This document shows, in pieces, positions 43,031 to 64,000 of a stretch of 64,000 nt of DNA. The first letter of the stretch is position 1, and each line of letters opens with the position of its first letter. A program made the position numbers and the translations under genes. The DNA comes from Acanthaster planci (lineage: Eukaryota), in the NCBI RefSeq assembly GCF_001949145.1, contig NW_019091355.1, forward strand, positions 4,599,374 to 4,663,373, given 5' to 3'. Under the pieces are notes generated by a model. The model made no database searches, was not told the origin of the DNA, and was given only the letters and a program-made list of their open reading frames with translations.

Positions 43031-43814
43031 TCTAGCGAGCTGGTGTTTCATTTCAAAGCCAGTTCGGGGTGGATCCATCCAAAGCAAGGTCTCAGCTGTT
43101 CAATGACAAATGCCACTGATGCCTTTCATGGAGAAACATCCACGCTCGATATAGTTATTTGCAAGGTTTATTTCAAATTGAGCGAAGTATTTTGTCATTA
43201 TTTTCATTATTGTACTTCACACCTCAAATCGTCGGGGTTTTTTCTTTTGTCCCGTCATTTTGGAATGCAGAGTACGTTTTGAAAGGTTCTTTGCCTTCTG
43301 CATTGGGAAATTGACTTCATGACCGACAGGCCCAATTTTCACAGAAGCGGCGTCAAAATGTGCGTAAGGTGAAACACACATAATGGCGTCAAAAACCCGC
43401 TGTGTGGCTGTGATTTCAGAGATTAAAGCAGTGGCGGAGGAGGCAGGGACCAAGCAGGATATGCCCCCCCCCCGGTTTTGACTAAGGGAATTCCTGACTC
43501 CATTCTTGATAGATCCTTTAATGGGGCGGGGCTTCATGGATCGGCCTACTGATGGCTAATGTCTGATAGTCTAACAGATGACCCCTACCTTGAAAATCGT
43601 TCCGCCACCGTTGGTGTAAAGGGAGCCCCAACCCTTGAATGGTTTTCAAGAGCGAAAATGTCGTTTGTTTCGTCCATGTTTATGAAAGGTATACAATGCT
43701 GTTAAGAACATGATCAAGGTTAACCTCCAAACAACCCCCATTTTGTCGAGGACGCGGTGTCCTCTATTGCTCCCTCTCAACTTCACAATTGTCCCTTTCT
43801 TTCCTTCTCTTTTA

Positions 43815-44099
<285 letters not shown>

Positions 44100-44799
44100 T
44101 CATTTTTCATGTGCAGCGTCACCCAGCATCCTTACTTCGAAACGTCAATATGTTGGATGACGGGAGGCCAACTTTCAGATAGCTACTGACTTAATGTTCT
44201 ACGGCAGTTTGGCATCGTGGCAAATTTTTAAACCTAAAAATAAAGAGCAAAGGGCATAGTGTCACTGAAAACTGTATACTTTCAACTAAGTAAATGAAGG
44301 CTACAATCATGCGCATAACCATGTGCAATCAACGACAGAAATCCGTCGCCAAATTTGCAAGACTCCGTGGCAGGAATATTCTGTGTGCGGTGGCGGATAT
44401 GTTAGAGTGTAACTTATAGCAGTTTGTAGGGCATAACTTGAGGGAGAAGGTTTAATTCTTCACTTTAATGAAGGCATACACACTTTTAATACAGAAATAA
44501 ATCTGCACATTTACATTTTTTTCATAGGGGGTGTCAGAGGTGTGTTTTGACAGCATTATAGAAATTCTTTTCCATCAGGAGTTGGAAAAATATCAACCTG
44601 TCGTCCCACTAGTCCCTGAGAGCTAGTTCTGTAAACAGTGAGTGATTTTCCCGTGTGCGCGCGGTAAAAACGTGGAGGAAGGATTTTGATCCACATCGGC
44701 AAGGTGAGCAAACTCCCGTCGTTCCTTTGGAAGAAATTCTTGATTTCATTATCGTTATTACATTTTAATTAACTTATCTGTGTAAAGATGTCACGTTAT

Positions 44800-45272
44800 C
44801 ATGGGCGTAAGTCCTGAGGGGATCATGGGGTATATGTCACCTCCACATTTTGGACCAGGGGGTGGGCTATTGAATCACCCCCCACGATTTTCTGTGAGAA
44901 AACGGTTTTTTAGGGCCGATCGTGAATTTTTTTTCGGACTTCCTATAACAGCCAGATATATTCAATAGCACTCAAAAAGGTACGACTATCAAAAAAGCCA
45001 TAATATGCCGCTCTGACGTACTACTCTGTAGGAATGTAATACGCATAACAGATGTGCATCTGAATCATGAACATCGCCCCTATACAGACTCATAATTATG
45101 GTGCACCCCCCCAGTCTATGTGATAGGTGCGCGATCGTACATGCGGCGAGGTGATACTCACACTACCCTGTCCCCTCCCACTTTTCAAATTTCCATGGCC
45201 GGGCAAGTTATCTCTCCAGAATTCCACATCCGCCACCCACAACTTTCCGGCACAATTAAATTCACGCCACTG
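44800..45272. mobile_element. Degenerate non-autonomous DNA element (CATGGGCGTA ... TCACGCCACTG ends), related ends at 30481 and 61478
   Basis: Imperfect terminal inverted repeats followed by G-rich/C-rich subterminal tracts. Similar starts cagtggcgtagg (30481) and caagggtgtaaatcacgggggatggggtatata (61478). Confidence 0.4.
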
Positions 45273-45713
45273 CACGTTATAAAACTACGTTGGGCATTAT
45301 GAGATTCACAGTTTCTCTGATCGCCCCATCACACTCTGACAACCACCAGAACGACCCCGCTATCTTATAAAATTTCGTTCAAACGTTGCTAAGACGGGAT
45401 GAAACATGGTTCTTTCAACATCGTTACTACGTTGCCGGCACGCGTGTGAAGTTCGCATTACGTTCTCAGGACTATTAAACTGAGTTCCGACTCTGCTTAG
45501 ATGTAATCGGATCGTTCCACGATGTAAAAGACTTGGATACGATTGTACTGTGAGCTAAAAGGTCACTGTATGGTGGTAATACGTTGTTGCTGCATGCATA
45601 GCGTGTGTGGTATGCTTTTAGCGAGCCGCCGTCACGTTCCTCAGTGTTTCCTGTATGTACATTGGCTGAAACAATGCACTCCATCAGTTCTGTCTCCCAG
45701 TGGGAACGGAATG

Positions 45714-45924
45714 AGGCCCTTTTCCAATACTCGACTTGGGCTCCGTCTGAGGCTTCGTTCCCAAAACCAATACCCGATTGTGGGCATGAAGCGGCTCTCT
45801 TGCATTTCATTTGTGTTTTGTGGCACTATTAAACTAATTACTGCGCTTACAGCTTCAACGTCAGCTAGTTAAAAAACAGTTGAAGCCTGAGACGGAGCCG
45901 AAGTTGAGTACTGGAAAACGGCCT
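45714..45924. mobile_element. MITE with ~44-bp TIRs in Pitx intron 1
   Basis: aggcccttttccaatactcgacttgggctccgtctgaggcttc versus reverse complement of the right end, aggccgttttccagtactcaacttcggctccgtctcaggcttc. Confidence 0.75.
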
Positions 45925-46743
45925 ATAATTCTTCCCGATCGAGCTGCGCTTGTCCCACCAAGAACCTACTGCGATGCTGATGCGCCAAGACTACGTGTAG
46001 GCCTATGCGTCTTCAGGATAGGTTGTTATTACGCTGTCACTGTGACTGGAGGCCTCTACGACCATGTATGCTACGTAAATTTTGAGCATATGCCCCAAAA
46101 TTTTGGCACAACCTCCCCGTCCATGAAGACTATACCATGCTGCTGTCACTTCTCACTGAGTTCTTACTAAGATCTCAAAACGATTGGCTACGCTCTCCCG
46201 ATTTTTTGAGGACGTAGAACGGTCGTGTTTGAGTGCGATGGGGGATTTAGTTTTCGACGTACCCCAATAACTGGTTTGTTTCCGACCAGAGGCTGATCCA
46301 CAGAAGAGAGCTGCAAATTGGGGAGGGGATCCCCAAGAGAGTTTGCCTTCATATAAAATCAGAGGAATTGAACGAGCCAGGACTTCAAAGTGGTACACAG
46401 GCATCTAACCCTTGCCTGGGTTTAGAAACTTCTGTCGAGTTATTCTCATGGAAATAGTACTGCTGTCTATAAACTGGACATGTTACTGCTTCCGATTTCG
46501 ATTTTCGATTAATAAGAATTGAAGGGAACAGTTCGGGATTCCTGCGCAGAAGCACAACTGGCGGAGTGATTTAACTTATTCGAAAACTCCAGTACGCATA
46601 ACACAATCAGGGTAACCCACGTCATTCTTTGAATGACATTTAGAATAATTATGCCAAATGTGCGAGATTTTTACATTTTAAATTGTTGGTTGTGCTTGTT
46701 TAGTTCTTAAATTTTTTTTGAGGGGGGGAGCATTGTTTTGGTT

Positions 46744-46795
46744 TCTCGTCTCGTCTCATCTCATCTCGTCTCATCTCGTCTCGTCTCGTCTTGTC
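46744..46795. repeat. (TCTCR)n pentanucleotide microsatellite
   Basis: tctcgtctcgtctcatctcatctcg... Confidence 0.9.
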
Positions 46796-49178
46796 CCTTT
46801 TGTCCTTTCCTTTATGGCAGATCCACCAGTGAATACATTTCATTTTGAAACTCTTCTTTGTTTTGAATCTTTGCTACTGTAGACGTAAGTCAAAAATGAC
46901 CGGGATGAAAATTTGCTTCTATAGTCAGGACTCTGGCAAATCATTACTATGCAATGAGATACCTTTGAATGTACTTCGCTACGGGGGATACTATGCGACT
47001 GCTTAATTCTGCTGAAGAAGTCCCCCTTTCCAATAAATCTGAGCCAATATTGACCGTACAACCCAACGGGATTAAAAACAATCTCGGCTGGTTAAACATA
47101 TGTACATTTTGAACACCCTAAAACATCGCGTTGCTTTTCATGCATATACATTGGTGAAACAGCGCATTTTGAGTTGGGTCCTACCTTTCTAGGGGAATGA
47201 ATCTTTCATTGATGAAGTTCGCTCTCCTTAAGATCGGTGAATTTTTATCCAAGGTTTATCCTCCAGCGAAACGGCAAAACAAACATTCGTGAGCAAACGG
47301 CTAAGTCCATTTCCCGGTCTCGGCGCAGTATTTATACCCAAAGTCCTCTCCTGCATAACTTTGCAATTTGATGTGGCATTTAGCTTTGCGGTTGTCGCTC
47401 AAAAAAAAAAAAAAGAAACAGACAAAACTCGAATGGCATTCGGTGAAATGCCGGGCCCCGTGTAAAAATGTGCTGAAACGTCCCCCGGTCAGTGGAAGTC
47501 CACAACTGCTTTCAATTCGGCGGGAGCAAGTTGTGGGGTTTCTTTGACTATTACCCTTGATGCATTTGTGAGAAGTGAGGCTGTAAGTATTTCATGGGGT
47601 TTTGCAGACAGTTGGCAGGAAATGAAAGAGTCTCAACAGATTCTTATACTTTTTTGAGGGGTTGTGCCCCCCCCTCCATTGTCACAAGTATAAGTGTTTA
47701 AAGAGCTAGTTTTCAACGCTAAATGTTTCAGAAAGATAAAACCCCCATCTCGGTGACAATCGAAAGCAAGCATCCTCGTTTATTTTAGTATGTATTCCTC
47801 ATAACTTGAAAGAGGAATTATTTTGATTTAAACCGTCACCGAATGTCCAGAAAAACAACACTATTTACTCAAACCCCGACGTTATGCCCCCCATCAACTT
47901 GACACGACGCTCGAGTAAGGCAAAAATATCTGGAAAACAAAACTTCACACTCTTCTTAAGCTTCAGATAAATACTGCAAGCCCCATTACTGATCAGCCTC
48001 ACGTTGGTTGTTTTTTAATTCCAGCTCAAAACCGTCCCACGGGAAGGTGCGCTAGTCCACTGGGCCTTATGCATGTTAGAACTTTGATCCAAGTTACCAT
48101 GGTGACAAATTGAAAAGTGAGCCCACGTTTCTTAAGTTTGCAGGCCGTACATCATCTTAAAGAGGAAGGGAAATTTTGACAATCACGCCAGGGAAGATTT
48201 CGAGTCTTTATTGGCTCAACACGACTCTTATTTAATTAAGAAGTCTCTTTGTTATTTTTATCATTTTTGTTTGAACTGATCTTGCTATTGTCAACTGGAT
48301 GCCAACTGCGCGTGCGCGCAACCAAAATTCTCGCAGTTTTTATTTTAAAAAATCAAATAGTCCAATTATTTTCATTAAACCTTTATACTTACTTGATATT
48401 GACCTGGGTACACTTTCGAGACATTAGGGAACGATAGACAGGGCGAAATATCTTCAACGTTTTAAGTACATTGCCAACCAAAACCGTGCTAAGAAGTAAG
48501 CCATTAGGCTGGAATTTTCGTTTAACTTTATAATAACTGCATTGGAGGCATTCAAGCCAGCAATGTACTTTAAAACGCTGTAATGACTAGGATGATGTTA
48601 TATATGTTAAACTGACAGACACACTTGTAGAAATATCCATTACCTGTTTTTCAGTTAGTTACTTCATTACTATTTGTAGTGAACTTGTTTTGCCAAAAAC
48701 GCATGCGTAATTACACAAGGTAATGCACAAAATTACACACTCCATTCTTGATTAACACGGCCCGCAGTCAACGAAAGTGAAGCATTCATAGAGAACCTTT
48801 CTGAGTAGTCGCCTTAACCTCCCCGATCGTTAAGCAGCAAAATAAGACTGAACAAACGCAGACCGTTATTTGTTCAATGACAGGAGGGAAAATGCGACAA
48901 GGTGGAAGTATTTCAGTACTTAAGGATGTCTACACATACATGGAGGCGAGGAACCGTTAAGAGCATGACATTTCTCTGTGGTCATCTTTGGCAAAGAAGA
49001 TTATAGTGCATGTGTTAAATACATGTAATACTTTTCAATTTTTACTGACACGAAAACAATCAAGATTGTAATAAGCTTCTCAAATTAACAATGCCTATTT
49101 TAAATAGTAGACAGACTAAATATTGCATGATGGCTCTTAATCAAGTTAACTAGCAATACTGTTTACAGAGTTAAATAC

Positions 49179-49404
49179 CTCGTGTCGATCTTTCTCGGCT
49201 ACCGGCATTAACCCTGTTACTCCATGCCGACCCATGGGATCCTTCGGCGCTCGAGACTCCATGACGGGAGAGGTGGTTTCCGCTACCTCCGTCGCCGCTC
49301 ACAACCTTTTCCACCACGCCACGAGGTAGTCTGCCCGCCGTCCTGAGCGCATCCGTCCCGGCGTATGTCTCCAGTGCTGACAGCGGAGCGCTTAAAATCT
49401 CCAT
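49179..49404 (-). CDS. Pitx: Pitx homeobox gene, first coding exon (MEILSAPLSALETYAG...RERSTR)
   Basis: ATG-initiated GC-rich ORF. It ends CGA G|GTATTT (phase-1 donor at 49178), which joins in frame (G+CG = Ala) to the phase-1 acceptor of the homeobox exon at 44050. Assignment rests on phase compatibility and position, not on recognisable homology. Confidence 0.7.
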
Positions 49405-50473
49405 GGTATCTCGAGGAAAAAGCTCCAGTATCTAGATGATCAGGCTAGATTAAGGTGACTCTAGACCACCAGCTTCGCCCGGCTTAGCTTGCACTCAACG
49501 GAGGAGGGAAGCTTCTGTGCGAAAGCTGAGGGATAAGACCACAATCGTGGGCCGAGGCTCAACTCTTAAACCCCCCACTAGCCCGACAAGCCAGCACGGT
49601 ACAAGTCCAAACAGTCGAACTTGCGTTTGTAAATTGGGTTCTTCTCTCGCGTCACGCACGTGTGTGTATGCACGGTCAGGTCATTGCATTAAGCTAGCAA
49701 ATTTTTCTCTTCGTATTCTCACCTGAAAAAAACTCTGCCCTTCGAACAAAGACCACCTGAATATTGTCAAAGAAGAGGTTTTTTAATGCGAAGGTGAACG
49801 ACAGAATATGCCAGTCTCCTTTTTGTCGCTTGATTTGAATTTGACATGTACAAGCCAAGTAGACAATTCTAAACTTTCAATCGGCGCCCATATTTCTTTT
49901 CCGCTCGCAGCAAATGTCACGTTCAGTCTGTTGGCTGAGGGCCAGATTACGCATGCGCACGTTGAAGCCTAGAGTCCCTTTTCAGGATATGAGCATGCGC
50001 ACAAGGTCTAGTCGCTTGCACTTTTAAAATGGGCCAGTGACGGCTTGCAATGCCTTACAACTGACTGAAGGAAACTTGCAATTCAGACCCAAAAATAACA
50101 CACTGAAAGTGAAGTGTTTCCCAAGATATTGGCTGTGTCAAGGATCACAACTGAACGTGCAACCTACAGGGCGCATGTGTGCGGCAAATTATACCACAGT
50201 ACTCCATTCTTCGCTGTGTCTGGATTCCATGCTATGATTATTTCGGTATGAGACTTAAAAAGATGGCCATTATTGCATCACAAAATTCTTATTGTACACT
50301 GCAATTAAAATCGGAACTCAAAAGTTCTAAAATATTTCTGCCATCGATTTGTTCACGCGTCTTGTGTGTCCATGTTTTCTTCTGCATTACAAAAAAAGAG
50401 AGATTAAATAAATCATCGAAACAAAATTAAATTAATGTAAACTGTCCACCCTGATTGTTATTTAAGGATTCAG

Positions 50474-50615
50474 AAATTACATTTTTAAGAAGCTGACGAG
50501 TTGATTTGGTTAGTCCAAACTGAAAAGACAAGCAGCAATTATCTTCATGAAAGCTTGCTCGGTGAAAATAAGGCGACAGGAGGGCGCCATTTCAGTTTGA
50601 CCGTTCATCGATCAT
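50474..50615 (+). repeat. 142-bp segment duplicated at 51872-52013
   Basis: Ungapped direct match by eye from aaattac...aagaagctgacgagttgatttggttagtccaaactg through ccgttcatcgatcat. Confidence 0.9.
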
Positions 50616-51819
50616 CCTCCTGTTTGTAAAAAATGAAATGAAATCAACAGGGGGCGCTATGTATTGATATGCGACTGCGCTAATTAATGCAGTTTGCATG
50701 TCCTCTATTAATTTGAGGGCTTTGCAGTCTATGTATTGGAGGGTTTGTTAATTAAAAAAGTTTAGCTTTGAACAGGGCTGTGAGCTGGTATTCTTCAGGA
50801 ATTTGGATGAAATTGGAATCTGAATCTGGCCTATTTTGCAATGAAGTGAAGAGCTACGCATAGCTGTGTTTCTCCGAACTGCCTTAGGGATACTTTAAAT
50901 GTGATCACCGTTGCTGGTAAATTACACCCATTAGTGATCGAATTACCTCCCCTTAAATTAGAAACAAAAGGCAAGGCTGAACAGCGATACTTTCTAATGC
51001 AGCGTGAGCTTGTCACGTGCCCATCATTAAATAATAACATCAACGTGCCTCTGTTTCAAATTCCTTTTTTTTCTGAATGAAAACCTTTTTATCACTTTCC
51101 GAAATGCGTAGAAAACGTTTTGGGTATTGCTTAATCAATGATGGCAACTCTGAGATAGTCTTAGCAGACCAGTCGTTTGTGTAAAATCTCTAGCAAAATG
51201 AGCCTTCGCAAATGCAGAGACTGCGAAATTGATAACTTTCACTGAAGGAGTCATTAATTTTTTTTAGAAAGTGTAGGCCTAGTCATTTTGCTGCCGTACG
51301 GTATTCTTTGATCTTTGTGCCATCTTTTATCTCAAATAAGTGATGCTTTAAAACGGTTATTGTTTACAATTCCGTTGAAACGACAGCGAAAACCAATTTA
51401 TTGGTCATAAAATCATTGTCGCGGCCTTGAAGGATAGGCCATCGTTGTCATGATTGCCACTGTTGCCGACACGATCCGCGTTATCACGGATCAGAGTTGA
51501 ACCCACCCATTTTCAAACTTGTTAGACAAACAGAGAGGTTATCATATTACGGGAAGTGTAAATACAAACTTTGATAGCATTGCCCGAAATTAGTCCTCCT
51601 GTTATCTAAGGCCGCTTGATGAGCCCCCCGCCTCTTAAAACCTCTTGAAATGGATTTTATTGCTCGCTTTGTCAGGTCACGTTGGTGCTGAATTGATTTA
51701 ACCAAGTCGATTCACCATTTTGTAAGAAAAATTACGCGAAAGCGGAATGTAACACGAGCACACATCAATCGCTTCAAATGAGCACGTCACAGTTCGGAAA
51801 GTCTTGCAGATTGACCAGC

Positions 51820-52070
51820 TATGCCAAATTCTACGATGCAGAGGGTTTTTTTCTTAAACAACGAGCTTTTCAAATTACAATTTTAAGAAGCTGACGAGTT
51901 GATTTGGTTAGTCCAAACTGGAAACACACGCAGCAATTATCTTAATGAAAGCTTGCTCGTTGAAAATAAGGTGACATGAGGGCGCCATTTCAGTTTTACC
52001 GTTCATCGATCATATGCAAAATTTTACGATGCAGAGGTTTTTTTTTTCTTAAACAACGAGCTTTTCAAAT
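51820..52070 (+). repeat. Copy of the 142-bp segment (51872-52013) flanked by ~56-bp direct repeats (51820-51875, 52013-52070)
   Basis: tatgccaaattctacgatgcagagggtttttttcttaaacaacgagcttttcaaat occurs, near-identical, on both sides of the insert. Confidence 0.9.
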
Positions 52071-52903
52071 GTTATTTTGAAGATGTCCCAACCTTATTTA
52101 GAGATGTATCGGCCGATCAAAAAACGAGAGCACTTGGCGTGTCTGATTTATGTTGCTTCGGCTTTTTAATGACCACAGGCAGCCATGTAAGGCGCTAGCA
52201 AATAGCTTTAGGCATTCCACCTATAGATGCATGTCTTATTTCCGAACACTGTTTCCCATGGAGGCAAACTATAGTTCAGTAGAAAAGTTTAAGCATTGGG
52301 TTTTGCACGACTAGTTGTGAAACAGTGTTGTCTCTCAACTACCCGGTCTTCTTATAAAAGCGTCTCCAGTAGGTTGCTTCGTCACTAAGAAATTTGGAAT
52401 CGCGGTCAGACAGTATGTTACTCCGGCAGGTTTCATTAATAAAAGGAAAACGTGAAAAAAATCGCATCCGATCAAGTGTGTTTATTCCCCAATCGATCTA
52501 CTTTTATTAAACTGATTTCATTTCGCAAGTCTTCTAAAGCTCAACCATGTGGTTTGTTATTTTTACAAGCACGAAAACATAAAACAAAGTCGCTCTTTTT
52601 TTTTACTGCAAGGTTGTTCCGGATATATTAACAGTTGTTAATTCATCTGCGATGATATTTTAATTTAACTAATTCCTGTTGAATTTTTAATACATCTACT
52701 TACTAGTAAATGTCGTGCTCCATTCAGAAGGACATGCGCGATCCCCCCCCCGACAACTCACCATGAAACAGATGGCTTAATTACGCTATTTTGCCACAAC
52801 AGACGAAAAGGTCGGTGCACTGAACTTCAGTTTCATGTGTTTGAATCTGCAGTGCTTGGCGGTTTAAAATTTGCCGTAGGTGAGACTCCACTGGCAACTG
52901 AAG

Positions 52904-53000
52904 GACAGGGGCAAGTCTAGTTCCTTATCGAGCGGATCAGTATTATAAGGCCACTTCAAATATAAAGACCAAGCAACTCGTTTACAACTTGCCAGTGTTG
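52904..53000 (+). promoter_or_regulatory. Candidate core promoter of exon 1A (GATA site CTTATC 52924-52929, TATAAAG 52961-52967, Inr-like CCAGTG ~52992)
   Basis: TATA about 33 nt before an Inr-like motif and about 180 nt before the ATG. Block is homologous to the 1B upstream region. Confidence 0.5.
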
Positions 53001-53138
53001 GTTATGGGTCAGTGCCACTCAGCGGCACAAGCGGATCGACTCGCGTGCAGTAGATGACTGGTTGAAAACCAATACACAGACTGATGCTTACATTTCAAAT
53101 TTCATTTTGAAAAAGACGTCCATCGCGAACTCATCAAA

Positions 53139-53851
53139 ATGGGAGCTAGCGATGAACTGAAATTGAATGGCATGGAAATAGATGAAAACGGGAGCTACTC
53201 CCCGCCTGAAAAGGGTGGGGTACACTGCCGTATGAGTCAGATCGCTGCTGCCGTGGTCCTGGTTCTCGTGTTGTGTACGGCTGTTGGCCTCATGGCGGGC
53301 CTTCTCCCGCAGTGTGAAGTTCCACAGGTTGAACCCATCAAAGGCACCTCGCCGAAACCAGAGCCGCCGATGAAGACCACAAAAATGCCGCCGATGAGCA
53401 CCAAGAAACCAATGATGACCACCGACGCGCCGGCAACGACGCCCACCCCGTGCCTGGAACCCTGGTGTAACCTTAGACTGCCTTCTGCCATCTACCCGGA
53501 ACACTACAAGTTGCTGCTCTACCCAGATCTGGACACCGCTAACTTCACCGGCACGGTGGATATCGACATCGTGGTCAAGGAAGCCATCAGGTTTCCACGA
53601 CTCCACATCAAGGAGATGATCATCCACTCGTCTCAGATTAGGCCTGCGGTGGAATCCGGCTCCACACCGGCACCAGCTCTGGAGGTTGTCCGGTCTTTCG
53701 AGTATGTTCCTAATCAGTTCTACGTGATGGAGATGAAGGACGATCTGATGCCAGGGAACTACGTCTGGAGCTTGGAGTTCCAGGGATATCTGCAACCAAA
53801 CCGTGTGGGGTTCTACCTGAGCACTTACACCAATGAAAAGGGTGAAAAAAG
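53139..53851 (+). CDS. Enpep: ENPEP-like M1 aminopeptidase, variable first exon 1A (tail, TM, 45-aa stalk, start of N-terminal domain)
   Basis: Type II TM segment IAAAVVLVLVLCTAVGLMAGLL, P/T/K stalk, PWCNLRLPSAIYPEHYKL (M1 family WxxxRLP...P.HY.L motif) and GFYLSTY. Donor AAAAG|GTAAGA, phase 2. Confidence 0.9.
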
Positions 53852-53998
53852 GTAAGACCATACCGCCACCTGTATGATTAGGCCGAGGCCGAATCATAAT
53901 GGCTGTGGCTTGAGATTACATGAGACTACAGGAACTGCCTGCAGCCACTGCCGTGGACCTGTGCGTAAATTTGTAGCCGCAGCCATAGAGATCATTAA

Positions 53999-54123
53999 AG
54001 TAAAGCTAAAGGGGTTAGGCCCGTTCCTGTACATGTACGCTACGCCAAGTTTGCCCCGCATATAGTGATGATAGTAAAGCTAGAGGTGTCAGGCCCATTC
54101 TTGTACGTTACGCCAAGTTTGCC
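53999..54123 (+). repeat. Local direct duplication (~55 bp x2) in the intron after exon 1A
   Basis: agtaaagctaaaggggttaggcccgttcctgtac...tacgccaagtttgcc repeated as agtaaagctagaggtgtcaggcccattcttgtacgttacgccaagtttgcc. Confidence 0.75.
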
Positions 54124-56113
54124 TTATCGAACAGAGCGACATGATGTTCTACTATTACTCGACCATGTAACACCACTCACGAGATCACGCGTACTAAGTT
54201 GCTTCTTGCGTAATGGTGCATCACCTCTTGTTCTACTTACCTCTACGGTTTGCCTATTCATCTCTATTGTATAGACTGGATAGGATATCGCGTCCAAAAT
54301 GCATCCCGCGTATTCGTATTTTCAGGAGGGTAAATAACGAGCGTTGCGAATTTGGTTGCGTAGGCCTACACTTTCAAACGGATATTTTTCAAGAACTGGT
54401 TGAGGTTAATGTACGTCGGTCGTCACATTTCGAAGAAAAACTGAATTCTGGACAAATTTTGGAAAGACTTATGGTTGAGGTATGCACAGCAGTGAATTGC
54501 CAGAGATCAATGAATCACGTTTGGAAGAAGGAGCAGCTTTTCACATGTGAGTAGCATTTACAAAAAGTTCCTACATGCCTTGTACTCTATAATTCTTGAA
54601 TTTGTATAGTATGCCAGTCTATTTAGCTTATCAGGCTTAGTAGGCCTATATGAGTCTTCACTATGTCGAAGTTGGGACCCTCTGAAATGTTACTTATTGG
54701 CTAAAGTGGTTTCAATAACTGAATGATTAATTTGTCGTTCATTTCCCCTAGATTTCAAAAATTCCAAGAATGCAGACGCATTGAACCCAGATCGAGTGAC
54801 AGACGATGTGATATCAAGTGACAGATTCCTTCAGGGGAGAGATGAAATCAATAAGACGAGATGCAGAGACCTGGCGTTTCCGTTGAATGAAGTAACAAGC
54901 AAGGAAGGTCAAAGACAACGTAATGAATTTAAGAAAGAAACTTTGTCTAAATTATAAAATTATTTGTTCTCAGTTAACAGTGACTTTATTATGAAAGTAG
55001 TTTTTAAACATAAATCTTTGGTTAGTGAGTCAGTTTGGCTGTTCAGTTATAACTGCGCTCACTTTGTGCTCACCGAAAAGATTCTCACATTTCTGTATGT
55101 CACATGTCGGTTTTCAATCAATTTATTTAATATGTGAATGGATTTCCCTACATTTTTTTCCTGTGAGTGTGTAAACTTAAAATTAAGACTTAATTTCAGT
55201 TTTTGATGAATTTTTCAGTGTTGGCTCATCGAATCAGTACGGGAAAATAAGGTGGACAGTTTGGCATCCTAATCATTGGTAAACCTACATGTATATTGTC
55301 GGTCTTCGGGGAAATTTCAATTTTTTACACATTGAACAAATGACGAATGAAGTGACCCGTGGAAGGGAAAATATTGCCCAAGTAAGACCGTTGACAACAG
55401 CTGTGAAAAATTAATTTTAAAATAAAAATAAATGCACACATGCACAAAAAAAGGTTGATATTGTCGAGTAGGTTATTTAATAGGATAATGGTCTGGTGAT
55501 TCCGCGGAAATGATATTCTTGCATTTTCTGTTATTTTTACTTGTTTTTGCGAGGGAGGCCCACAAGAAAAGGTTGTTTCAATGTTTCCCTAATGACCCAT
55601 CTACCAGAAGGAGGCCGAATTTTACAGTCCAAATTTGGAGATGATAGCTTAGGGTCTAAATTGAAAACATACAAAGTTTGGTTCAGATCAGATCAGGGAA
55701 TATTTACTTATGTGACACTAAAGTTTGTGCACGTTCTTATGGGAATGTCTCCCAAGTGACCCATTTTTGTCAATGAAAGATTCACCAAAGCATCCACTGA
55801 CTTAGGCCTGCCTTTTTGAGGCAGGAATGGGGGGGGGTTCAGTATTGCACCAACATACACGATATTGGATACTGTTTTTAGGGAGATGATTCTACGGGTC
55901 GACGGTCTTTCCTAGTAATGCAACTGAACGTTTTCTCTGATAGATTTAAACTTTCGTTTATTGACCTGTAGATGTTACTAGCCATTCTCCGAGGCTGAAT
56001 CTTCTACAGCGTGTAAAACGCCAATGATCAACTTCGGTTTCGTCTGTGAGACATTTAAGGTATTGCATGTATTACAGGTTATTGGTGTGTATGGTTCCAT
56101 TGACAATCAAGCC

Positions 56114-56202
56114 GACAGTGACAAGTCTATACTCTTATCAGGTTAATGGGTTTTAAGGCCACTTTGGACATGGTGCCATCGTTTCCAACTTGGCCAGTGT
56201 TG
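56114..56202 (+). promoter_or_regulatory. Candidate core promoter of exon 1B, paralogous to the 1A promoter
   Basis: Shares blocks GACAG.G.CAAGTCTA...CTTATC, TAAGGCCACTT and TCGTTT.CAACTT(G)GCCAGTGTTG with 52904-53000. Confidence 0.5.
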
Positions 56203-56349
56203 CTTGCAGTAGGGAATATCCACTTGTATCCAGTGGGTGATCAGTGATAGACGTAAAAATTGATGCTGCAATTCAGCATTCCTGTTAGGAAAAATACTTA
56301 GTCGAGGTGCTCCGAAGTAGAGGTTCGGTTCTTTTACAAACGCATCAAC

Positions 56350-57098
56350 ATGGATGGCGAGAAGTTTAAAAACATGGAAATAGATGAAAACGGGAGCTAC
56401 AAACACGTAAAGGGCGGAATATTCGTCAGTAAGATTCAGATAGCAGCGTTCGTGGGCCTAGCACTCTTGCTGTGTACAGCTGTCGGTCTCATGGCGGGGC
56501 TTATACCGCAGCGTGGCGTCCCAAACGGCGAACCCACCCCTAGCCCTTCGGCTAAACCAGAGCCCCCAATGGAAACCACAAAGATGCCAACGACGACCAC
56601 CAAGAAACCGACAGTTAGGCCTACCACCAAGAAACCGACAGTGACTACCAGCAAACCGATGATGACCACAAACCGACCAGCAACCACGCCCACCCCTTGC
56701 GTGGATCCCTGGTGTAATCTACGCCTTCCCTCTGCCATCTACCCGGAACACTACAAGTTGCTGCTCTACCCAGACCTGGACACCGCTAACTTCACCGGCA
56801 CGGTGGATATCGACATCGTGGTCAAGGAAGCCATCAGGTTTCCACGACTCCACATCAACAAGATGATCATCCACTCGTCTCAGATTAGGCCTGCCGTGGA
56901 ATCCGGCTCCACACCGGCACCAGCTCTGGAGGTTGTCCGGTCTTTCGAGTATGTTCCTAATCAGTTCTACGTGATGGAGATGAAGGACGATCTGATGCCA
57001 GGGAACTACGTCTGGAGCTTAGAGTTCCAGGGATATCTGCAACCAAACCGTGTGGGGTTCTACCTAAGCACTTACACCAATGAAAAGGGTGAAAAAAG
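56350..57098 (+). CDS. Enpep: ENPEP-like aminopeptidase, variable first exon 1B (61-aa stalk)
   Basis: Paralog of 1A with its own ATG (caacATGG), TM and longer Thr-rich stalk. Donor AAAAG|GTAAGA, phase 2. No stops or frameshifts. Confidence 0.9.
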
Positions 57099-58993
57099 GT
57101 AAGACCATATTACCGCGTATAATTATGAAGGCTCTCTGACACCTAGGAATAATGTTAAGATTATATTTAGAGCTTGGATTTTCTTGGAATGTACTACCAA
57201 GCCGAGTAGGGGCCTACCATAAGCACTAGTAAGACCGAGATCATGGAAATGCACGTTAAAAGGCATGTCTATAGCCTACCATTCAAGACTTCTCGGCCGC
57301 CAACATGAGCAATATTTGTCTGTGTGAAACTTACCGCCCATCGCTCAGAGAGGACTTCAGGCAGGCCAAATTTCCCAAGATCCAAATGGATTTCATTAAG
57401 ATTACAGCTGAAATTTCAGTCTTCTCTGGGATTAATTCTGACGATGCCAACATTGAGCTTTGACTCCAGGGGGGACTTGATCGAACAGAGTCAGGGGAAT
57501 CAAGTTGGCGCACTGCCTCTTTCCTCGCGCCTTTCACCTTAGCTCCCTGGGTTCCATTTCCAGCTCGGCAGTCCTCCTGTGGATTGGGTTTTCAATACTA
57601 ACCTGATTCTGTGGATATTACCCAGAATATTTGAAAACTGTAACTGCTTCTCTTTCTCCTTTCCAAGGGTTTCTTCAGGCCTGGGAGCTTCATTTCTTTC
57701 GGACATTTTTGAGGAATCTTTGGTTTCATTTCCAGAAGTACTTAATAAAAGCATAAGCTATGCTGTCTTCATATTTAGAGGGGTTGACCGGTTTTGACAA
57801 TTTTGACCACAGGTTTAAAACTGCTCGGCCTTAAATTTTCAGCGAGGAACTGGAAGAAGAAATGCGCTTCGTCTGTCAATACAGACCCGTCACCACTTCA
57901 AGCATTTTTTTAAAAAAATTATCATGGCGCCATGGGTTAAGTTTTTATTAAAGCCCCCCCCCAAAAAAAAGCAACTACAACAACTGCAACAAAAATAACA
58001 ACGACAAAAATTACCCTTTTCCACTGAAAAATTCCGAGAAGAAATGATTCCACAGAACTATTTGGCTATTTGGATCTGGGCACATGCCCAAGATATTTTT
58101 AATCAGGATAATAATGCACAGTCATTTTGTATATTAAGCCCTTGTAACTCTATACGCGAGCAAACAAACAATTTAAACATGCACTAAACAAATTCAAGCA
58201 ATAAGTTTATCGCCATTTACAAACCACCACCATTACATCAAATACTGAAGGTCAACGAGCAGAAATAGGCTACGCCTAGGGCACATACGCTGCTAGTCTA
58301 AGTTATCAAGTGCCTCATGACCCTTGAAAAGTGGACTTGCCCGAGTCTCACGAGTACGGTAATTTTTGAAGTACCTCCCCTTGAGAAATCACCTTGGGAT
58401 CTTTCTTTAGTGCCACAGCTTAAGAACAAGATTTTCCTCTGCTCTCTGGGGCACAATTCTGCATAGGTGCAGTCAAGCTTGCCGGTATCGGTCACCCTCT
58501 CGTAAGTTTTTCGGGAAATTAGAGAATCAGTTTATCTTGAACATAACCTGCACGTTCTGCAAACAGCCGATGTGAGCGACGCTTTATTTCTCCCAAGAGT
58601 TTTAAAAAAACATACCGATTCCACAGCCCCACAAATCGCGTATTATCAACACACGGCCTCCCACAGAAAGTTCGACTTTGTCACTATCACATGTCTTTAG
58701 GGGCGTGGTTTCAGCTAACCGCCTTATTCATAGTTGCATCTTGTTCAAAACCCATAGAGAGTTGCCACATGGGTCATGTTTTGTTTACTTGGGTCATAGT
58801 TTACAACTGTTCACAGGACTCTTCGTTTAATTGATTTTTTTCAGGCAACCATATTTCTCTAAGACAAGGCCACAAGCACATCTCACAACTATGAAAAACC
58901 TGGCATACTGCATGATGTTACTGTCGACCTTGCATACATGTTGCTGCTCGCAATTTCAGTCTACATGTAATGGGGTGGGAAAACTACTAATTC

Positions 58994-59034
58994 TATATAT
59001 TTAAAGCTCCTCAAAGCAGTCCATTTCGTCAGTT
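58994..59034 (+). promoter_or_regulatory. Candidate core promoter of exon 1C (TATATATTTAAA + Inr TCAGTT at 59029-59034)
   Basis: TATA-like run about 30-35 nt upstream of a consensus TCAGTT initiator. A possible 5'-UTR intron GTGAGT(59165)...TTGCAG(59315) follows. Confidence 0.45.
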
Positions 59035-59331
59035 TTTTTCTCTCGTGAAGTCAACATGGAAACCGCGTCTAAACTCATGGATCTTCGACGCACGTCTGTA
59101 CACATTTGCAATGCTGGTGTTTATGGAAACGACATTCAGTTGAGCAGTATTAGCTGGCGCTACTGTGAGTAATTACAATGTAGTGACGTACTGTCGCAAA
59201 GAAGGGCCTTGGCCACGACTGCCACAGCTTGAAGTCCCCTCACAGATGGTTAATTCGATTTGAAGTCAAGGTTAGCGAGGAGGTCAAACTCTTTCAGCAT
59301 AATAATATATTGCAGACAGCTCGATGGCACC

Positions 59332-60002
59332 ATGGAACTTCCAAGGAAAGAGTGCGTGGCACACGAATTGAGGTTCTCCGACACCTCTATGGACGAGGTG
59401 TCAGACGGAAGTGACAAGGACAGTGACAGGGAGAAAAGAGGAGTCTACGTCCGTAGGAGCCAGATTGTGGCTGCTGTCATCCTGGTACTTATGGTGGCGG
59501 CAGTCGTGGGACTGTTGGTGGGCTACTTGCCCGAGTGCGAGACGACTACCGAGACTACAAAGCCTAGGCCGACGGTCACAACGCCTGCGCCCACCCCGCC
59601 GTGTCTAGATCCCTGGTGTAACCTTCGACTGCCTTCTGCTATCTACCCGGAACACTACAAGTTGCTGCTCTACCCAGACCTAGACACAGGTAACTTCACC
59701 GGCGCGGTAGATATCGACATCGTGGTCGAGGAAGCCATCAAGTTTCCACGACTCCACATCAACAAGATGATCATCCACTCGTCTCAGATTAGGCCTGCCG
59801 TGGAATCCGGCTCCACACCGGCACCAGCTCTGGAGGTAGTCCGGTCTTTCGAGTATGTTCCTAATCAGTTCTACGTGATGGAGATGAAGGACGATCTGAT
59901 GCCAGGGAACTACGTCTGGAGCTTGGAGTTCCAGGGATATCTTCAACCGCAGCGCACAGGGTTCTATCTGAGCACTTACACCAACGAAAAGGGTGAGAAC
60001 AG
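59332..60002 (+). CDS. Enpep: ENPEP-like aminopeptidase, variable first exon 1C (acidic tail, 21-aa stalk)
   Basis: ATG in good context (caccATGG at 59332; the ORF-track TTG start at 59260 is unlikely). TM IVAAVILVLMVAAVVGLLVGYL. Donor AACAG|GTAGGT, phase 2. Confidence 0.88.
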
Positions 60003-62210
60003 GTAGGTACCATTAAGGATATTATTCCACCCAAATCGCGTTTCAGTTTCGGGATCCTCGCGTTTTATAAAGGATAGAGCACAGAGGGTCTTTTTAAAAA
60101 AATATAACCACCTCGTGGATTTTAAACAGCATGCTTTGAAGGTTACTAGGTTGCCGGTGTGGATAAAAAACTCATGATATTACGCCATCAACATTACTAA
60201 ATGATGACATGAACTGAATGCAGTTAACCAAGGAAACGAAAAGAAGAGGCAAAGTTGACGAACAGTCGGGTAACGTATAGCAAGAGGTTACGTAAATCTG
60301 TCACAATTAAATTTTTTTTGTCTTCAGAATAATATAATTACGTAGTTACGTAGTTACGTAAATACGTAAACTTTAATCAATTAAAGTTATTAAAGCAAAC
60401 CTAAATCAAACTAACTTACACGCACCCGTCAAAAACCGGCCACATTGAACATACAACGACATGTAATATATTCGCTAATTGTGATCGTTTGCCTGAATTT
60501 CCTGTTTTTTACATCATCGAGGAATTCCTCCATATTTACATTGAGGTCTCGACCTTACAGTGAACGGTTACTTTGATGGCCGGGGTGGAAACTTGGCGTG
60601 CAGTTTTCATGCCAGTTCAATCATTGAATTAGTCCCACTGGGTCTCTGTGGTATGCCGTGGGGTCGTGCACTTTCCGACTGAGAACGGGGGTTTCTGCAG
60701 CTGTCCCATTGAGTTGAAAGTTAGCTTCGATATCACCTGAGTGCAGCAGGACGCGTGTGCTTGGGAGTGGTAGGGACAAAATGAAACAAGGAGGCTTGTC
60801 CCCTTGGTGAGATGGCGACACACATCTGGTCTTTCTCAAGTCTGTACTTTTCCCTTCTCTGTTTTCGTATTTTTTACGTGTCAATAATTCAAAGACGTCG
60901 GTGATTGAACCGGTCGACCAGGAAGACGCAAACTTAGTTGCTTGAATAAGACCCAACTGCGCAAACCGGCGTTGGCAGGGCAGGTGGATCTGTATACAGA
61001 CGGTTTCAGTTGGGGTTGTATTGGTGTATTTGCGTCAACCAGACAAAAGCCAAGTATGGATACACGGACGTATGGCTGAAAGTACAGGAACGTGGTGTGG
61101 GAACTAATGTTTGCTCTAGAATGTATGATTAACCACGCAGGTCTTGCGTCAGGGTTCTCTAACAGATGTAAATAAAACTTGCTTGAAACTTTGGACTGGA
61201 TTTCTGGATGAACTTTGGTCAGCCTTGTCCGTTATCGCGTCTGCACTCCAGTGCCAGGCAGTGACTTGCTATCTTTTATTCAGTGGTGAAATAATCCGTG
61301 TGTAGATGGGATAAAGTTTTGTCAACAGGCAAGCTGATGATGGTGAGCTGGTGATGCAATTCTCGTCCCTGGGTGCCTTTTCTGCACTGTGGCATTCAGT
61401 GGCTTGGAGGCTCCAATAGAATTCAAGGCTGTGTAATATTTCCGAAGAACTTGATTCCAAGGTTTTGAACCTTGAGTCAAGGGTGTAAATCACGGGGGAT
61501 GGGGTATATACCCCCCACCCACACAGGCACACGCTTTTTGTTGTGAGCAAAAAATAAAAGCGGACTGTGAACAAGTTTGCCGCCTTGAAAAAAGAAAAAA
61601 AAAACAATTTTTAAGAGCCCTAAATGTGCCATTCTGAATACATATTACAGGTGTACATCACTATCATGGACATCGACCTGTTTTAGAGGCCCCCCATTGC
61701 GCCATTCCTTAAATTTCAATAAATGGCACTTGTTTGTTCCAATTTTCTATTGATGTGGTCCTGTTGGAGTTATTTGTGACTCACTGAAAACTATGTGACT
61801 TGAGATTTCATAGTTGTCTTTGTGACGCCACGAGTATAGCTTTTTATCGCTTACGATTATGTATAGCGCCCTCGTGCGAGATTGACATCGAAGTTTGTGC
61901 CGTAGATTTTGTTAGGCGTTTTCTGCGTTGTCGTCTGCACTTTTCGCAGCTGGATTGTGAACCCCGGCTGAGTTAAATTTGACTTAAGTGTTATACCCCT
62001 CCCGTGAGTGTGTTCAGGACTGTCAGTTTCTCAGAAAATATTCAGCTCTCTATAACCAAAACCAGCATAACAGAGAGTACAGCAGGTCAGTTCAAGAAAG
62101 TATGGAAGTGAACATACGGTGAGAAGTGAGCAATCTAACATGTCTAACGCTTTTGGCCTGCTTCATGGAATAAATTTTGAAAACAGGTTGTGTGAAGCGT
62201 TAGAGAAATA

Positions 62211-62800
62211 TTTTTATTTATTTATTTATTTATTCTGATATCCAATTGCGGAGATCCGCCACTTACAGGTAGGGCCTATCATGGAAAACAAAACAAAAAC
62301 AACTAAAAACAAAAACGGACTTACAGGTAAAAAAAAAGGGACAAATCCAAATTAACTCGTAAATAAATAAATAATTGTATAAACACAAACTTGAGCAAAT
62401 ACATACATTTAAGTTAGGTTAATTCAGTGTAAAACTGGCTAAACCTGTGGCAGTTTACATGTACATAGTTGAGTTATGAGTGCAAAGAACTTCTGTAAAT
62501 CTCTGTACGGAACTGGTTCTTTCCTTGGTTCTTTCCTTTGAGTTTTCTGTGTCTGTTATCAGTAGTGGAGCGTTTGAAGTGCCTATTATAACATCACTGG
62601 GTCAGTTAGTAGTGATACTTAACGTTAGTTTTGTTAAACCGGATCGAGCTACTTTTAGTACTTGTGAAGTGCTGACAACATCCAGTTAGGAAATGAAAAT
62701 CAAATTGTTAGCAGTGATACAGATGTTGCTACTGAAGCAGATATGATGTCTTAGCTGGAAGCAGACCTGTAGTTTCTTAACTCGCTTATGTCTTGATTAG
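62211..62800 (-). mobile_element. Possible decayed LINE 3' end
   Basis: Minus strand ends in an (AATA)n tail (62211-62233). Upstream a broken frame reads FRTEIYRSSL, reminiscent of the RT.RY..SF C-terminal motif of CR1/L2-type ORF2. Weak. Confidence 0.3.
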
Positions 62801-62896
62801 GCCTACTAATAATATTATCTAACTTATCTATGTATTACACATAATTAAAATCCACATGTAATTCTGTTATAAATGATGTCAATATGGAAATAAATG

Positions 62897-63013
62897 TTGT
62901 TGCATCGTGTTGCGTTGCATTGCATTGTGTTGCGTTGCATTGTGTTGTGTTGCATTGCGTTGCATTGTGTTGCATTGCATGGCATTGCATTGCATTGCGT
63001 TGCGTTGCATTGC
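62897..63013. repeat. (TTGCA/TTGCG/TTGTG)n pentanucleotide microsatellite
   Basis: Visible 5-nt periodicity; explains the repetitive CNATQ/QRNAM ORFs in the track. Confidence 0.95.
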
Positions 63014-63153
63014 TTGATGTGAATACCTGGTAAAATAAAAATAAGCATCATTCACATTTGAAGGGGTTTTTCCACAGACTGGAGATATGCACATAGTGCT
63101 TGTTTTGTACTGCCCAAACCACACCGATATTTTTCTTCTCTTTATTTTTTCAG

Positions 63154-63298
63154 GAAAATGGCCACTAGCAAGTTTGAGCCCACCGATGCGCGTCGCGCAT
63201 TCCCATGTTTCGATGAGCCTAACTTGAAGGCTAATTTTACCACCTCACTAGTGCGACCACAGACCCCTTACATTGCCCTCTCCAATATGAATGAAGTT
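63154..63298 (+). CDS. Enpep: ENPEP-like aminopeptidase, shared exon 2 ([48 protein letters not shown])
   Basis: Strong polypyrimidine acceptor ttttcttctctttattttttcag|G; AG+G = Arg completes the phase-2 junction. Hallmark [16 protein letters not shown] and ALSNM motifs. Donor GTT|GTAAGT, phase 0. Confidence 0.95.
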
Positions 63299-63872
63299 GT
63301 AAGTGTTACAGTTCCCGTAAATCAAGAAAGGAGTAAGCCTAGTGTCTAGAACAACAAATGATCAGTTTTGATAACTGCTGTTTTGTCTCCTGTAGTCTAT
63401 TCTATCGCAACTCCTGTTTCTTTGTATCAGAAGATACCGCAGATCCCTTTATTGTTTAAAGTTTACATCCCCCCAATAGATTGCTCAAAATTGTTGGAAG
63501 ATGTTGAGAGATACATGGAAAGACAACTGATCACAGCTCCAACAAACTTTAACTTTTTCTAGTCTTTAAGCAGAGAGCTTTACAAAAAATACAGAACAAC
63601 TACTTTCATATATTTGGCCAGACTGTCTTGGTTGTAAAGTCCTCCAGAATATTTTTATATAGCCTTGTAGTTGCTGGAGTTCATAGTTTCAAATCTTTTC
63701 ATATCTATTCCACTCACACAGTCAGATGTACCAGTTTTGCAGATATGTTGAAGGTGTTTTGTGGTGCCCACTCCACAGAATATCCCAAAGCATTTCTCAG
63801 CACGCCTCAAATGAAGTTTGTATTTCTTGTTTTTTTTTCTTTTTCTTCCCCCTTTTCTGTGGCACAAACTAG

Positions 63873-64000
63873 AGTTCAACCCCTTATCTCAGCACAAACA
63901 TGATCAAGACAGACTTTGCCCCCTCTGTGAAGATGAGCACATACTTGGCTTGCTTCATCGTCTGTGATTTCGAATTCAAGGAGTCATTCCTAAAGAGTGG
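63873..64000 (+). CDS. Enpep: ENPEP-like aminopeptidase, shared exon 3, truncated by window end (SSTPYLSTNMIKTDFAPSVKMSTYLACFIVCDFEFKESFLKS)
   Basis: Not in the ORF track. Acceptor ...aaactag|AGT in phase 0 after a long pyrimidine tract. Contains the M1 motif F..SVKMSTYL.CF.V.DF. Confidence 0.9.

What the first reader, a model, noticed from the sequence alone, without database searches (positions are those of the whole stretch)
52904..64000. Aminopeptidase with three tandem variable first exons spliced to one constant region (protocadherin/UGT1A-like architecture)
Seen: three intact paralogous exons (53139-53851, 56350-57098, 59332-60002), each with ATG, cytoplasmic tail, TM anchor, stalk and about 125 aa of the M1 N-terminal domain. 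All end AG|GT in phase 2. I found no copy of exon 2 ([16 protein letters not shown]) between them; the only one is at 63154, and it accepts all three in frame ([10 protein letters not shown]). Known: clustered protocadherins and UGT1A use promoter choice among variable first exons joined to constant exons, whereas vertebrate ENPEP has a single first coding exon with an intron at the equivalent position. Inference: one catalytic M1 peptidase is delivered with three alternative membrane-anchoring modules chosen by promoter. I am not aware of this being described for M1 aminopeptidases, but I cannot check the literature.
Basis: partly seen in the sequence, partly recalled or inferred. Interest (0 to 1): 0.9.

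Follow-up and report, generated by a model that had tools for sequence, protein, structure and literature searches.

The report
Sea-star peptidase with three swappable anchors
A sea-star aminopeptidase A gene splices any of three duplicated first exons onto one shared body, which likely lets separate promoters display essentially the same enzyme on three different membrane anchors, a layout known from a few other animal genes.

Summary
Confirmed. Three intact paralogous first exons (1A, 1B, 1C) precede one exon 2 of a sea-star glutamyl aminopeptidase (ENPEP-like, beside Pitx). RNA reads join each to exon 2: 1A and 1B with tens of reads in 4 of 6 raw-read runs, 1C with 7 reads in 3 runs. Use differs between samples: 1A-only, 1B-dominant, 1C-only, or none. 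Contigs of a DNA-like run carry each 5' half on its own flank, so an assembly artefact is unlikely. Separate promoters are likely but unmapped.

New here: the exons are mosaics. The enzyme-coding 3' halves are 93-98% identical with few silent differences, while tail, anchor and stalk are 40-66% identical. This points to gene conversion. The S1-pocket residues are in constant exons, so, unlike UGT1A, the variation probably changes anchoring and expression, not substrate. Patiria miniata has three comparable exon types, and a cricket ENPEP has two annotated paralogous first exons.

It is a new member of a known kind (GCNT2, UGT1A, protocadherin). Forms 1A and 1C are already in automatic annotation. 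My paper searches found no report for M1 peptidases. The scan noted this layout in other genes, not this one.

The parts
52823..53117 (+). Putative promoter and 5' leader of exon 1A; TATAAA at 52961
   Evidence: Homologous to 56030-56297 (local score 89 vs 24.1 +/- 3.6; 0 of 500 shuffles); TATA-like motif by pattern; a spliced contig starts at 53003
53003..53851 (+). Variable first exon 1A (CDS from 53139): 34-aa tail, TM, 54-aa stalk with juxtamembrane Cys59, start of the M1 N-terminal domain
   Evidence: junction to 63154 in runs X10, X13, X12, X15 and in a 4306-nt contig of X1; public full-length form P0004, 992 aa
56030..56297 (+). Putative promoter and 5' leader of exon 1B
   Evidence: Homology to the 1A upstream region; read starts and ends cluster at 56242-56253 in X10 and X12
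56242..57098 (+). Variable first exon 1B (CDS from 56350): 30-aa tail, TM, 70-aa stalk without the juxtamembrane Cys
   Evidence: junction reads 28, 32, 6 and 31 in X10, X13, X12, X15; no full-length 1B protein among the 6 members of the window's cluster
59332..60002 (+). Variable first exon 1C (CDS; 5' end unmapped): acidic 44-aa tail, TM, short 30-aa stalk; minor in the sampled runs
   Evidence: junction reads 5, 1, 1 in X10, X13, X12; only exon with depth in X11; public full-length form P0001, 978 aa
53484..53849 (+). Homogenised 3' tract of 1A (counterparts are the last ~366 coding nt of 1B and 1C); likely gene-conversion tract
   Evidence: 1A/1B: 6 differences in 366 nt vs 87 in 333 nt of the 5' part; four-fold sites 2 of 54 vs 21 of 42, Fisher p 9e-8
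62102..62118 (+). Tiny alternative coding start (MEVNIR) used by annotated model P0007; gives an anchorless, truncated protein; probably negligible
   Evidence: Sequence; zero depth in the bins holding it in all 7 RNA or RNA-like runs laid
63154..63298 (+). Constant exon 2 (single copy); encodes the positions matching human APA Asp221, Glu223 and Asp226 (here Lys244, Glu246, Asp249 of P0004)
63873..64000 (+). Constant exon 3 (runs off the window)
   Evidence: Junction 63298>63873 with 62, 77, 4 and 59 reads

Best explanation
This is one sea-star glutamyl aminopeptidase (ENPEP-like) gene whose first exon was duplicated in tandem to give three copies, each spliced to the same exon 2, each likely driven by its own promoter, and likely kept identical in the enzyme-coding half by gene conversion while tail, anchor and stalk diverged. 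Shown: three intact exons, three junctions, sample-dependent use, and the mosaic divergence. Inferred: the promoter was copied with the exon, so a cell type chooses an isoform by firing one promoter, and the cap-proximal exon splices to exon 2, skipping downstream first exons. Inferred: because the intron cuts through the M1 N-terminal domain, each copy must supply the same ~125 residues to fold with the constant half, so conversion plus selection homogenises that part. The products would be the same peptidase with different sorting tails, stalk heights and glycosylation, and, for 1B, no juxtamembrane cysteine.
For: Junction reads 1A/1B/1C to exon 2: X10 40/28/5, X13 41/32/1, X12 47/6/1, X14 0/0/0; X15 40/31/none listed, X11 none listed, X1 one spliced 1A contig. 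Their sums (73, 74, 54) match the exon 2-3 junction (62, 77, 59), so these exons supply about all input to exon 2. The unique 5' halves show sample-specific use. In X12, 1A depth is 2-7 and 1B is 35-59; in X10, 25-40 vs 59-82; in X13, 15-43 vs 34-43. X1 has 1A at 137.8 and 1B at 0; X11 has depth only on 1C. No joint enters any first exon from upstream within 46000-64000. The 1A and 1B upstream regions are homologous (0 of 500 shuffles). Four-fold-site differences, 5' vs 3': A/B 21 of 42 vs 2 of 54; A/C 21 of 30 vs 9 of 51; B/C 28 of 32 vs 9 of 51; all p < 4e-6. The 3' parts group by species (window clade 96/95); trees pairing 1C with Patiria X2, or 1A with Patiria P0194, are rejected for the 3' part (p-AU 2e-4, 4e-6), while the 5' part pairs 1C with X2 (76/84) and 1A is 67% identical to P0194 against 47% to 1C. 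S1-pocket positions map to constant exons.
Against: No CAGE or long reads, so no start site is mapped; 1C's upstream region is not homologous to the others (268 and 34 of 500 shuffles reach the score) and its 5' end is unresolved. 1A and 1B junction reads cannot be assigned cleanly, because their 3' ends differ at only two sites in the last 200 nt; X12 has most junction reads on 1A although its 5' depth is on 1B. The 5' tree is weak: grouping the three window exons is not formally rejected (p-AU 0.053), nor the four Patiria ones (0.15). 1C is rare in all sampled runs. X1 is contigs, where a hole proves nothing. Tissue labels are coded, so sample differences could be tissue, stage, condition or genotype. 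No functional difference between the anchors was tested.
Confidence: 0.7

Rival explanations
1. The array matters only for expression: three promoters subdivide where the enzyme is made, and the tails and stalks differ by drift with no functional effect.
For: Tails and stalks of ENPEP orthologs are poorly conserved in general (33-45% to Asterias, brittle star and urchin). A tyrosine-based motif in the 1B tail is not kept in the RNA reads (substitutions at 56406 and 56408 in most reads). The juxtamembrane Cys is present in only 54 of 96 anchored homologs screened.
Against: A short-stalk type and long-stalk types exist in both this species and Patiria. The conversion tract stops at the stalk/domain boundary instead of erasing the 5' differences. 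The Cys lost in 1B is present in 9 of the 10 echinoderm rows of that screen, the exception being a crinoid protein with a signal-peptide-like N-terminus.
Confidence: 0.2
2. One upstream promoter transcribes the array and the three exons are chosen by mutually exclusive splicing from a shared non-coding leader.
For: Start sites are not mapped; the loose-end tables show only the best-supported rows (36 and 61 hidden); low-depth X1 contigs lie upstream of 1C (58043-59239).
Against: No joint into any first exon. The X1 contig simply ends at 53003. Read ends cluster at 56242-56253. No pyrimidine-tract acceptor was found by a simple pattern within 350 nt of any ATG (weak test). Pitx begins about 3.6 kb upstream on the other strand, leaving little room.
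Confidence: 0.05
3. The duplications are recent and independent in each sea star, and the 5' halves diverged fast; no gene conversion is needed.
For: The 3' tree groups by species; the 5' tree does not reject species clades (p-AU 0.053 and 0.15); Patiria X1 and P0193 are 98-99% identical, so recent duplication (or a duplicated haplotype) occurs.
Against: Silent sites are half to nearly fully diverged in the 5' part and almost invariant in the 3' part of the same exon, which protein-level selection cannot produce. The 1A contig of X1, a run with no 1B depth, carries the 1B-specific base at 53477 and 53774 (2 of 7 variant sites checked; 3 match both 1B and 1C, 2 match neither).
Confidence: 0.08
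4. The three exons are haplotypes or an assembly artefact, or two of them are silent relics.
For: The 3' halves are 93-98% identical, as alleles might be; no contig or read spans the whole array.
Against: Run X6 has contigs joining each 5' half to its own upstream flank at similar depth (33, 26, 41). The 5' halves are only 40-66% identical in protein. All three are transcribed and spliced. Patiria has matching exon types on one scaffold. X6 may be related to the assembly source, but the RNA runs come from four studies.
Confidence: 0.01

Closest known systems
Vertebrate GCNT2 (IGnT) cluster (PMC1885805, passages read)
   Same: Three similar tandem variable first exons, each with its own promoter and an N-terminal transmembrane segment, spliced separately to constant exons.
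   Different: Unrelated enzyme. The paper finds no predominant gene conversion in Gcnt2, whereas here the enzyme half of the variable exon is homogenised. Promoters here are inferred, not mapped.
UGT1A / UGT2A clusters (PMC1885805, passages read)
   Same: Variable first exon plus constant exons give several enzymes from one locus.
   Different: In UGT1 the variable exon diversifies the acceptor-binding domain by birth-and-death evolution. Here the S1-pocket positions are in constant exons and the variable enzyme part differs by 2-9 of 126 residues.
Clustered protocadherins and chelicerate sDscam (PMC1885805 and PMC4835542, passages read)
   Same: Promoter choice among tandem 5' cassettes; gene conversion among protocadherin variable exons; sDscam shows the layout in invertebrates.
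   Different: Those are recognition receptors with many cassettes that vary the ectodomain. This is a three-cassette ectoenzyme varying its anchor; nothing suggests stochastic single-cell choice.
Mammalian ENPEP / aminopeptidase A (PMC5995572, PMC5587309, PMC4416339, passages read; PDB 4kx7)
   Same: Best solved match (771 bits vs 625 for aminopeptidase N); exon 1 carries tail, anchor and the first beta-strands; HEXXH and Arg887 equivalents kept; adjacent to Pitx.
   Different: One first coding exon in mammals (20 coding exons). The Ca2+-binding Asp221 is Lys here, as in most invertebrate hits, and GAMEN reads GAMEH. Enpep lies downstream of Pitx2 in mammals but head-to-head with Pitx here.
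Anabrus simplex glutamyl aminopeptidase isoforms X1/X2 (XP_066993049.2, XP_066993050.2)
   Same: Two annotated isoforms share exactly the last 760 residues from the same exon boundary and have paralogous M1 N-terminal halves.
   Different: The halves are only 42% identical (not homogenised), one starts with a signal-peptide-like segment, and this is automatic annotation that I did not check against reads or DNA.

Membership tests
Variable-first-exon cluster (GCNT2/UGT1A/Pcdh type) | Tandem array of paralogous first coding exons | tested here: met
Variable-first-exon cluster (GCNT2/UGT1A/Pcdh type) | One common set of constant exons, none between the variable exons | tested here: met
   Single exon 2 and exon 3 in the window; P0001 and P0004 share the whole C-terminal part
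Variable-first-exon cluster (GCNT2/UGT1A/Pcdh type) | Each variable exon is separately spliced to the first constant exon | tested here: met
   Three GT..AG junctions in RNA reads; 1A/1B read counts are confounded by near-identical 3' ends; 1C rests on 7 reads
Variable-first-exon cluster (GCNT2/UGT1A/Pcdh type) | Each variable exon has its own promoter | tested here: inconclusive
   Supported for 1A and 1B; unresolved for 1C; no CAGE
Variable-first-exon cluster (GCNT2/UGT1A/Pcdh type) | Differential use of variable exons | tested here: met
   1A-only, 1B-dominant, 1C-only and silent samples among 7 runs; tissues unknown
UGT1A-style substrate diversification | Variable exon diversifies the substrate-binding site | tested here: not met
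   Positions matching human Asp221, Glu223, Asp226 and Arg887 are in constant exons; variable enzyme part 93-98% identical
M1 aminopeptidase, ENPEP group | M1_N + M1 + ERAP1_C domains with GAME(N/H) and HEXXH motifs, type II anchor | tested here: met
M1 aminopeptidase, ENPEP group | Closer to ENPEP than to ANPEP/ERAP; Pitx synteny | tested here: met
   the tree held only ENPEP-like proteins and has no outgroup
M1 aminopeptidase, ENPEP group | Ca2+-binding Asp221 in the S1 pocket (vertebrate APA) | tested here: not met
   Lys244 at that position; acidic-residue preference is therefore unproven
M1 aminopeptidase, ENPEP group | Preference for N-terminal Glu/Asp substrates | not testable with these tools
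   Needs an enzyme assay

The most novel reading that the evidence does not exclude
Sea stars evolved an anchor-swapping cassette: gene conversion confined to the enzyme half of each first exon keeps one peptidase constant, while selection keeps three distinct sorting and stalk modules, one lacking the putative dimer disulfide. The promoters sit head-to-head with Pitx and may compete for its enhancers. The same phase-2 intron has been used for this trick independently in sea stars and in an insect, making ENPEP a recurrent host of variable-first-exon arrays.
Probability: 0.3. Interest if true: 0.65.

Novelty: new member of a known kind. Interest (0 to 1): 0.48.

Why it matters
It adds an echinoderm ectoenzyme to the short list of genes built from similar variable first exons and constant exons. 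It shows a different use of that layout: changing where and how an enzyme is anchored rather than what it binds. The sharp boundary between diverged and homogenised sequence within one exon is a clean case for studying conversion under selection. In practice, automatic annotation lacks the abundant 1B form and lists two Patiria first exons as separate genes, so similar arrays may be hidden as orphan exon-1 models elsewhere.

Tried and rejected
No whole genome is held for the window, so the rest of the gene and other species' loci could not be read as DNA. No indexed holder was on record as RNA in the run list; this is no evidence either way. A tyrosine-based sorting motif in the 1B tail (YKHV) was dropped because most reads change it. 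A fourth exon-1 copy or a hidden exon 2 in the window: none. Short annotated forms (760 and 753 aa): no read support in the runs laid. Alternative N-termini in other animals: of 20 clusters inspected, only Anabrus showed paralogous first exons; Asterias, urchins, holothurians, amphioxus, Lingula, medaka and the two mollusc clusters printed (Mytilus, Ruditapes) each showed one N-terminal type; three further mollusc clusters were judged from the listing only (one equal-length protein per species). That is annotation, not proof of absence. Introns downstream of the donors are not homologous (18, 141 and 195 of 300 shuffles reach the score). A paper for the interchain cysteine of aminopeptidase A was not found, so that role is recalled. 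Searches with no report of this layout in an M1 peptidase or a sea star: (listings and abstracts only); no report of Pitx-Enpep linkage outside vertebrates in the listings. The library lacks most subscription papers, and no supplements were read. Earlier scan notes by sequence and by place gave nothing related. No structure or complex was predicted.
Full report
Observation. Each encodes a tail, a 22-residue hydrophobic segment, a Pro/Ser/Thr-rich stalk and the first ~113 positions of Pfam Peptidase_M1_N; exon 2 continues the same profile at positions 117-161. tBLASTn over the whole 64 kb finds no second exon 2 or exon 3 and no fourth first exon.

Identity. The public collection holds full-length proteins from the same contig that start with 1C (P0001, 978 aa) or 1A (P0004, 992 aa) and share the whole C-terminal part. 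It also holds three N-terminally short models; none of the 6 cluster members is a full-length 1B form. The nearest named relatives are sea-star glutamyl aminopeptidase-like proteins: the constant region is 80.5% identical to Patiria miniata and 74% to Asterias rubens, and groups with Patiria (99). The organism is therefore inferred to be a sea star close to Patiria. The best solved match is human aminopeptidase A (771 bits, next 625). The upstream gene on the minus strand is Pitx: homeobox exon near 43958 (best match PITX2/3, E 9e-24), last exon near 38495 with a weak OAR hit (E 0.005), and a putative start at 49404. Enpep is the neighbour of Pitx2 in mouse and human (PMC4416339, passages), which supports orthology. 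There it lies downstream; here the two genes are head-to-head.

Splicing. I laid 8 of the 23 listed runs. Junction reads 1A/1B/1C to exon 2 were 40/28/5 (X10), 41/32/1 (X13), 47/6/1 (X12) and 0/0/0 (X14), and 40/31/none listed (X15) and none listed (X11); X1 gave one 4306-nt contig running from 53003 through 1A into exons 2 and 3. The sums match the exon 2-3 junction (62, 77, 59), so these exons account for about all input to exon 2. The split between 1A and 1B junction reads is unreliable, because only two bases differ in their last 200 nt. The unique 5' halves are the better guide. X12 has 1A at depth 2-7 and 1B at 35-59; X10 and X13 use both. X1 has 1A at 137.8, 1B at 0 and traces of 1C; X11 has low depth on 1C only. 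X1 is contigs, where a hole proves nothing, and tissues are coded.

Artefact check. Contigs of run X6 join each 5' half to its own upstream flank at depths 33, 26 and 41, and break at the near-identical 3' halves. No piece spans the whole array.

Promoters. No joint enters any first exon from upstream between 46000 and 64000. The 1A contig ends at 53003, about 40 nt after a TATAAA. Read ends cluster at 56242-56253 before 1B in two runs. The ~300 nt upstream of 1A and 1B are homologous (score 89 against 24.1 +/- 3.6; 0 of 500 shuffles), so the promoter was probably copied with the exon; the region before 1C is not (268 and 34 of 500). Separate promoters are likely for 1A and 1B and assumed for 1C.

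Mosaic divergence. The last 366 coding nt of 1A and 1B differ at 6 sites; the 5' aligned 333 nt differ at 87. Four-fold sites differ at 2 of 54 against 21 of 42 (p 9e-8); A/C and B/C give 9 of 51 against 21 of 30 and 28 of 32. Patiria has two annotated isoforms (X1, X2) and two exon-1-only models on the same scaffold (P0193, nearly identical to X1; P0194, a third type). In the enzyme part, paralogs are 90-98% identical within a species and 80-87% between species; the window's three form a clade (96/95), and cross-species pairings are rejected (p-AU 2e-4 and 4e-6). In the tail-anchor-stalk part, 1A is closer to P0194 (67%) than to 1C (47%), and 1C pairs with the short-stalk X2 (76/84). However, species clades are not formally rejected there (p-AU 0.053, 0.15). 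The 1A contig of X1 carries 1B-specific bases at 2 of 7 checked sites. Together this favours an old array with conversion limited to the enzyme half. Conversion is well supported by the silent sites; the age of the array less so.

What varies. Human APA's S1 pocket uses Asp221, Asp226, Glu223 and Arg887 (PMC5587309, passages). These align to Lys244, Asp249, Glu246 and Arg924 of P0004, all in constant exons. The isoforms should therefore share substrate preference. One caveat is a QPNRV/QPQRT change near the end of 1C, whose position relative to the active site I did not test. The differences lie in tail length (34/30/44 aa; 1C acidic), stalk length (54/70/30 aa) and loss in 1B of a juxtamembrane Cys. 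That Cys is present in 9 of 10 echinoderm rows and in 54 of 96 anchored homologs screened; proteins outside 880-1100 aa or without a hydrophobic N-terminal segment were dropped before the count. That this Cys forms an interchain disulfide in mammalian APA is recalled; my searches did not find a paper for it.

Comparison. GCNT2 has three similar variable exons, each with a promoter and a transmembrane segment, and two constant exons. Conversion is reported as predominant in protocadherins but not in Ugt1 or Gcnt2 (PMC1885805, passages). Chelicerate sDscam shows 5' cassettes with alternative promoters in invertebrates (PMC4835542, passages). Mammalian ENPEP has 20 coding exons, and exon 1 carries tail, anchor and the first beta-strands (PMC5995572, passages). 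Of 20 homolog clusters inspected, one outside sea stars shows paralogous first exons: Anabrus simplex X1 and X2 share the last 760 residues from the same boundary, with N-terminal halves 42% identical. That is unchecked annotation. Six paper searches (listings and abstracts) found no report of this layout in an M1 peptidase or a sea star; the library lacks most subscription papers and no supplements were read. Earlier scan notes record the same layout in unrelated genes but nothing on this gene.

Verdict. A real, expressed variable-first-exon array, with comparable exon types in Patiria; a new member of a known kind, with an anchor-swapping twist that is inferred and testable. Interest 0.48.

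Noticed in passing
window 37965-49404 (minus strand): Pitx homeobox gene, head-to-head with the peptidase; its putative start codon (49404) is about 3.6 kb from the 1A transcript start. Pitx2 and Enpep are neighbours in mammals in the other arrangement, so the linkage may predate the echinoderm-chordate split.
   Followed up: partly
P0193, P0194 (Patiria miniata, same scaffold as X1/X2): Two exon-1-only RefSeq models that look like further variable first exons annotated as separate genes; P0193 is 98-99% identical to X1's exon and could be a duplicated haplotype.
   Followed up: partly
P0143, P0144 (Lytechinus pictus): Two 202-aa exon-1-only models differing by a few residues from the full-length ENPEP-like protein; could be extra first exons or assembly fragments.
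   Followed up: no
P0082, P0162 (Anabrus simplex): Two annotated isoforms with paralogous M1 N-terminal halves joined at the same exon boundary: a possible independent origin of the layout in an insect.
   Followed up: partly
window 63170-63172 (Lys244 of P0004): The Ca2+-binding Asp221 of vertebrate aminopeptidase A is Lys in most invertebrate hits (SKFEP/SKFQP) but Asp in one holothurian paralog (TDFQP/TDFEP); the Lys may replace Ca2+ as the positive charge for acidic substrates.
   Followed up: no
window 63295 > 63873: Minor alternative donor 3 nt upstream of the main exon 2 donor (6 reads in X13; the same reads are listed with three extra letters, so it may be a variant rather than a donor).
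   Followed up: no
window 57971 / 53900 in run X6: One contig (depth 24.6) joins these positions with 31 unmatched letters between; could be a low-complexity mismatch or a structural variant that would change the copy number of 1B.
   Followed up: no
window 55576-55767 and 54770-54811: High-copy, partly palindromic interspersed repeats in the intron between 1A and 1B (summed contig depth in the thousands in X6); also a 142-nt direct repeat at 50474-50615/51872-52013 and a 207-nt palindrome at 9159-9365.
   Followed up: no
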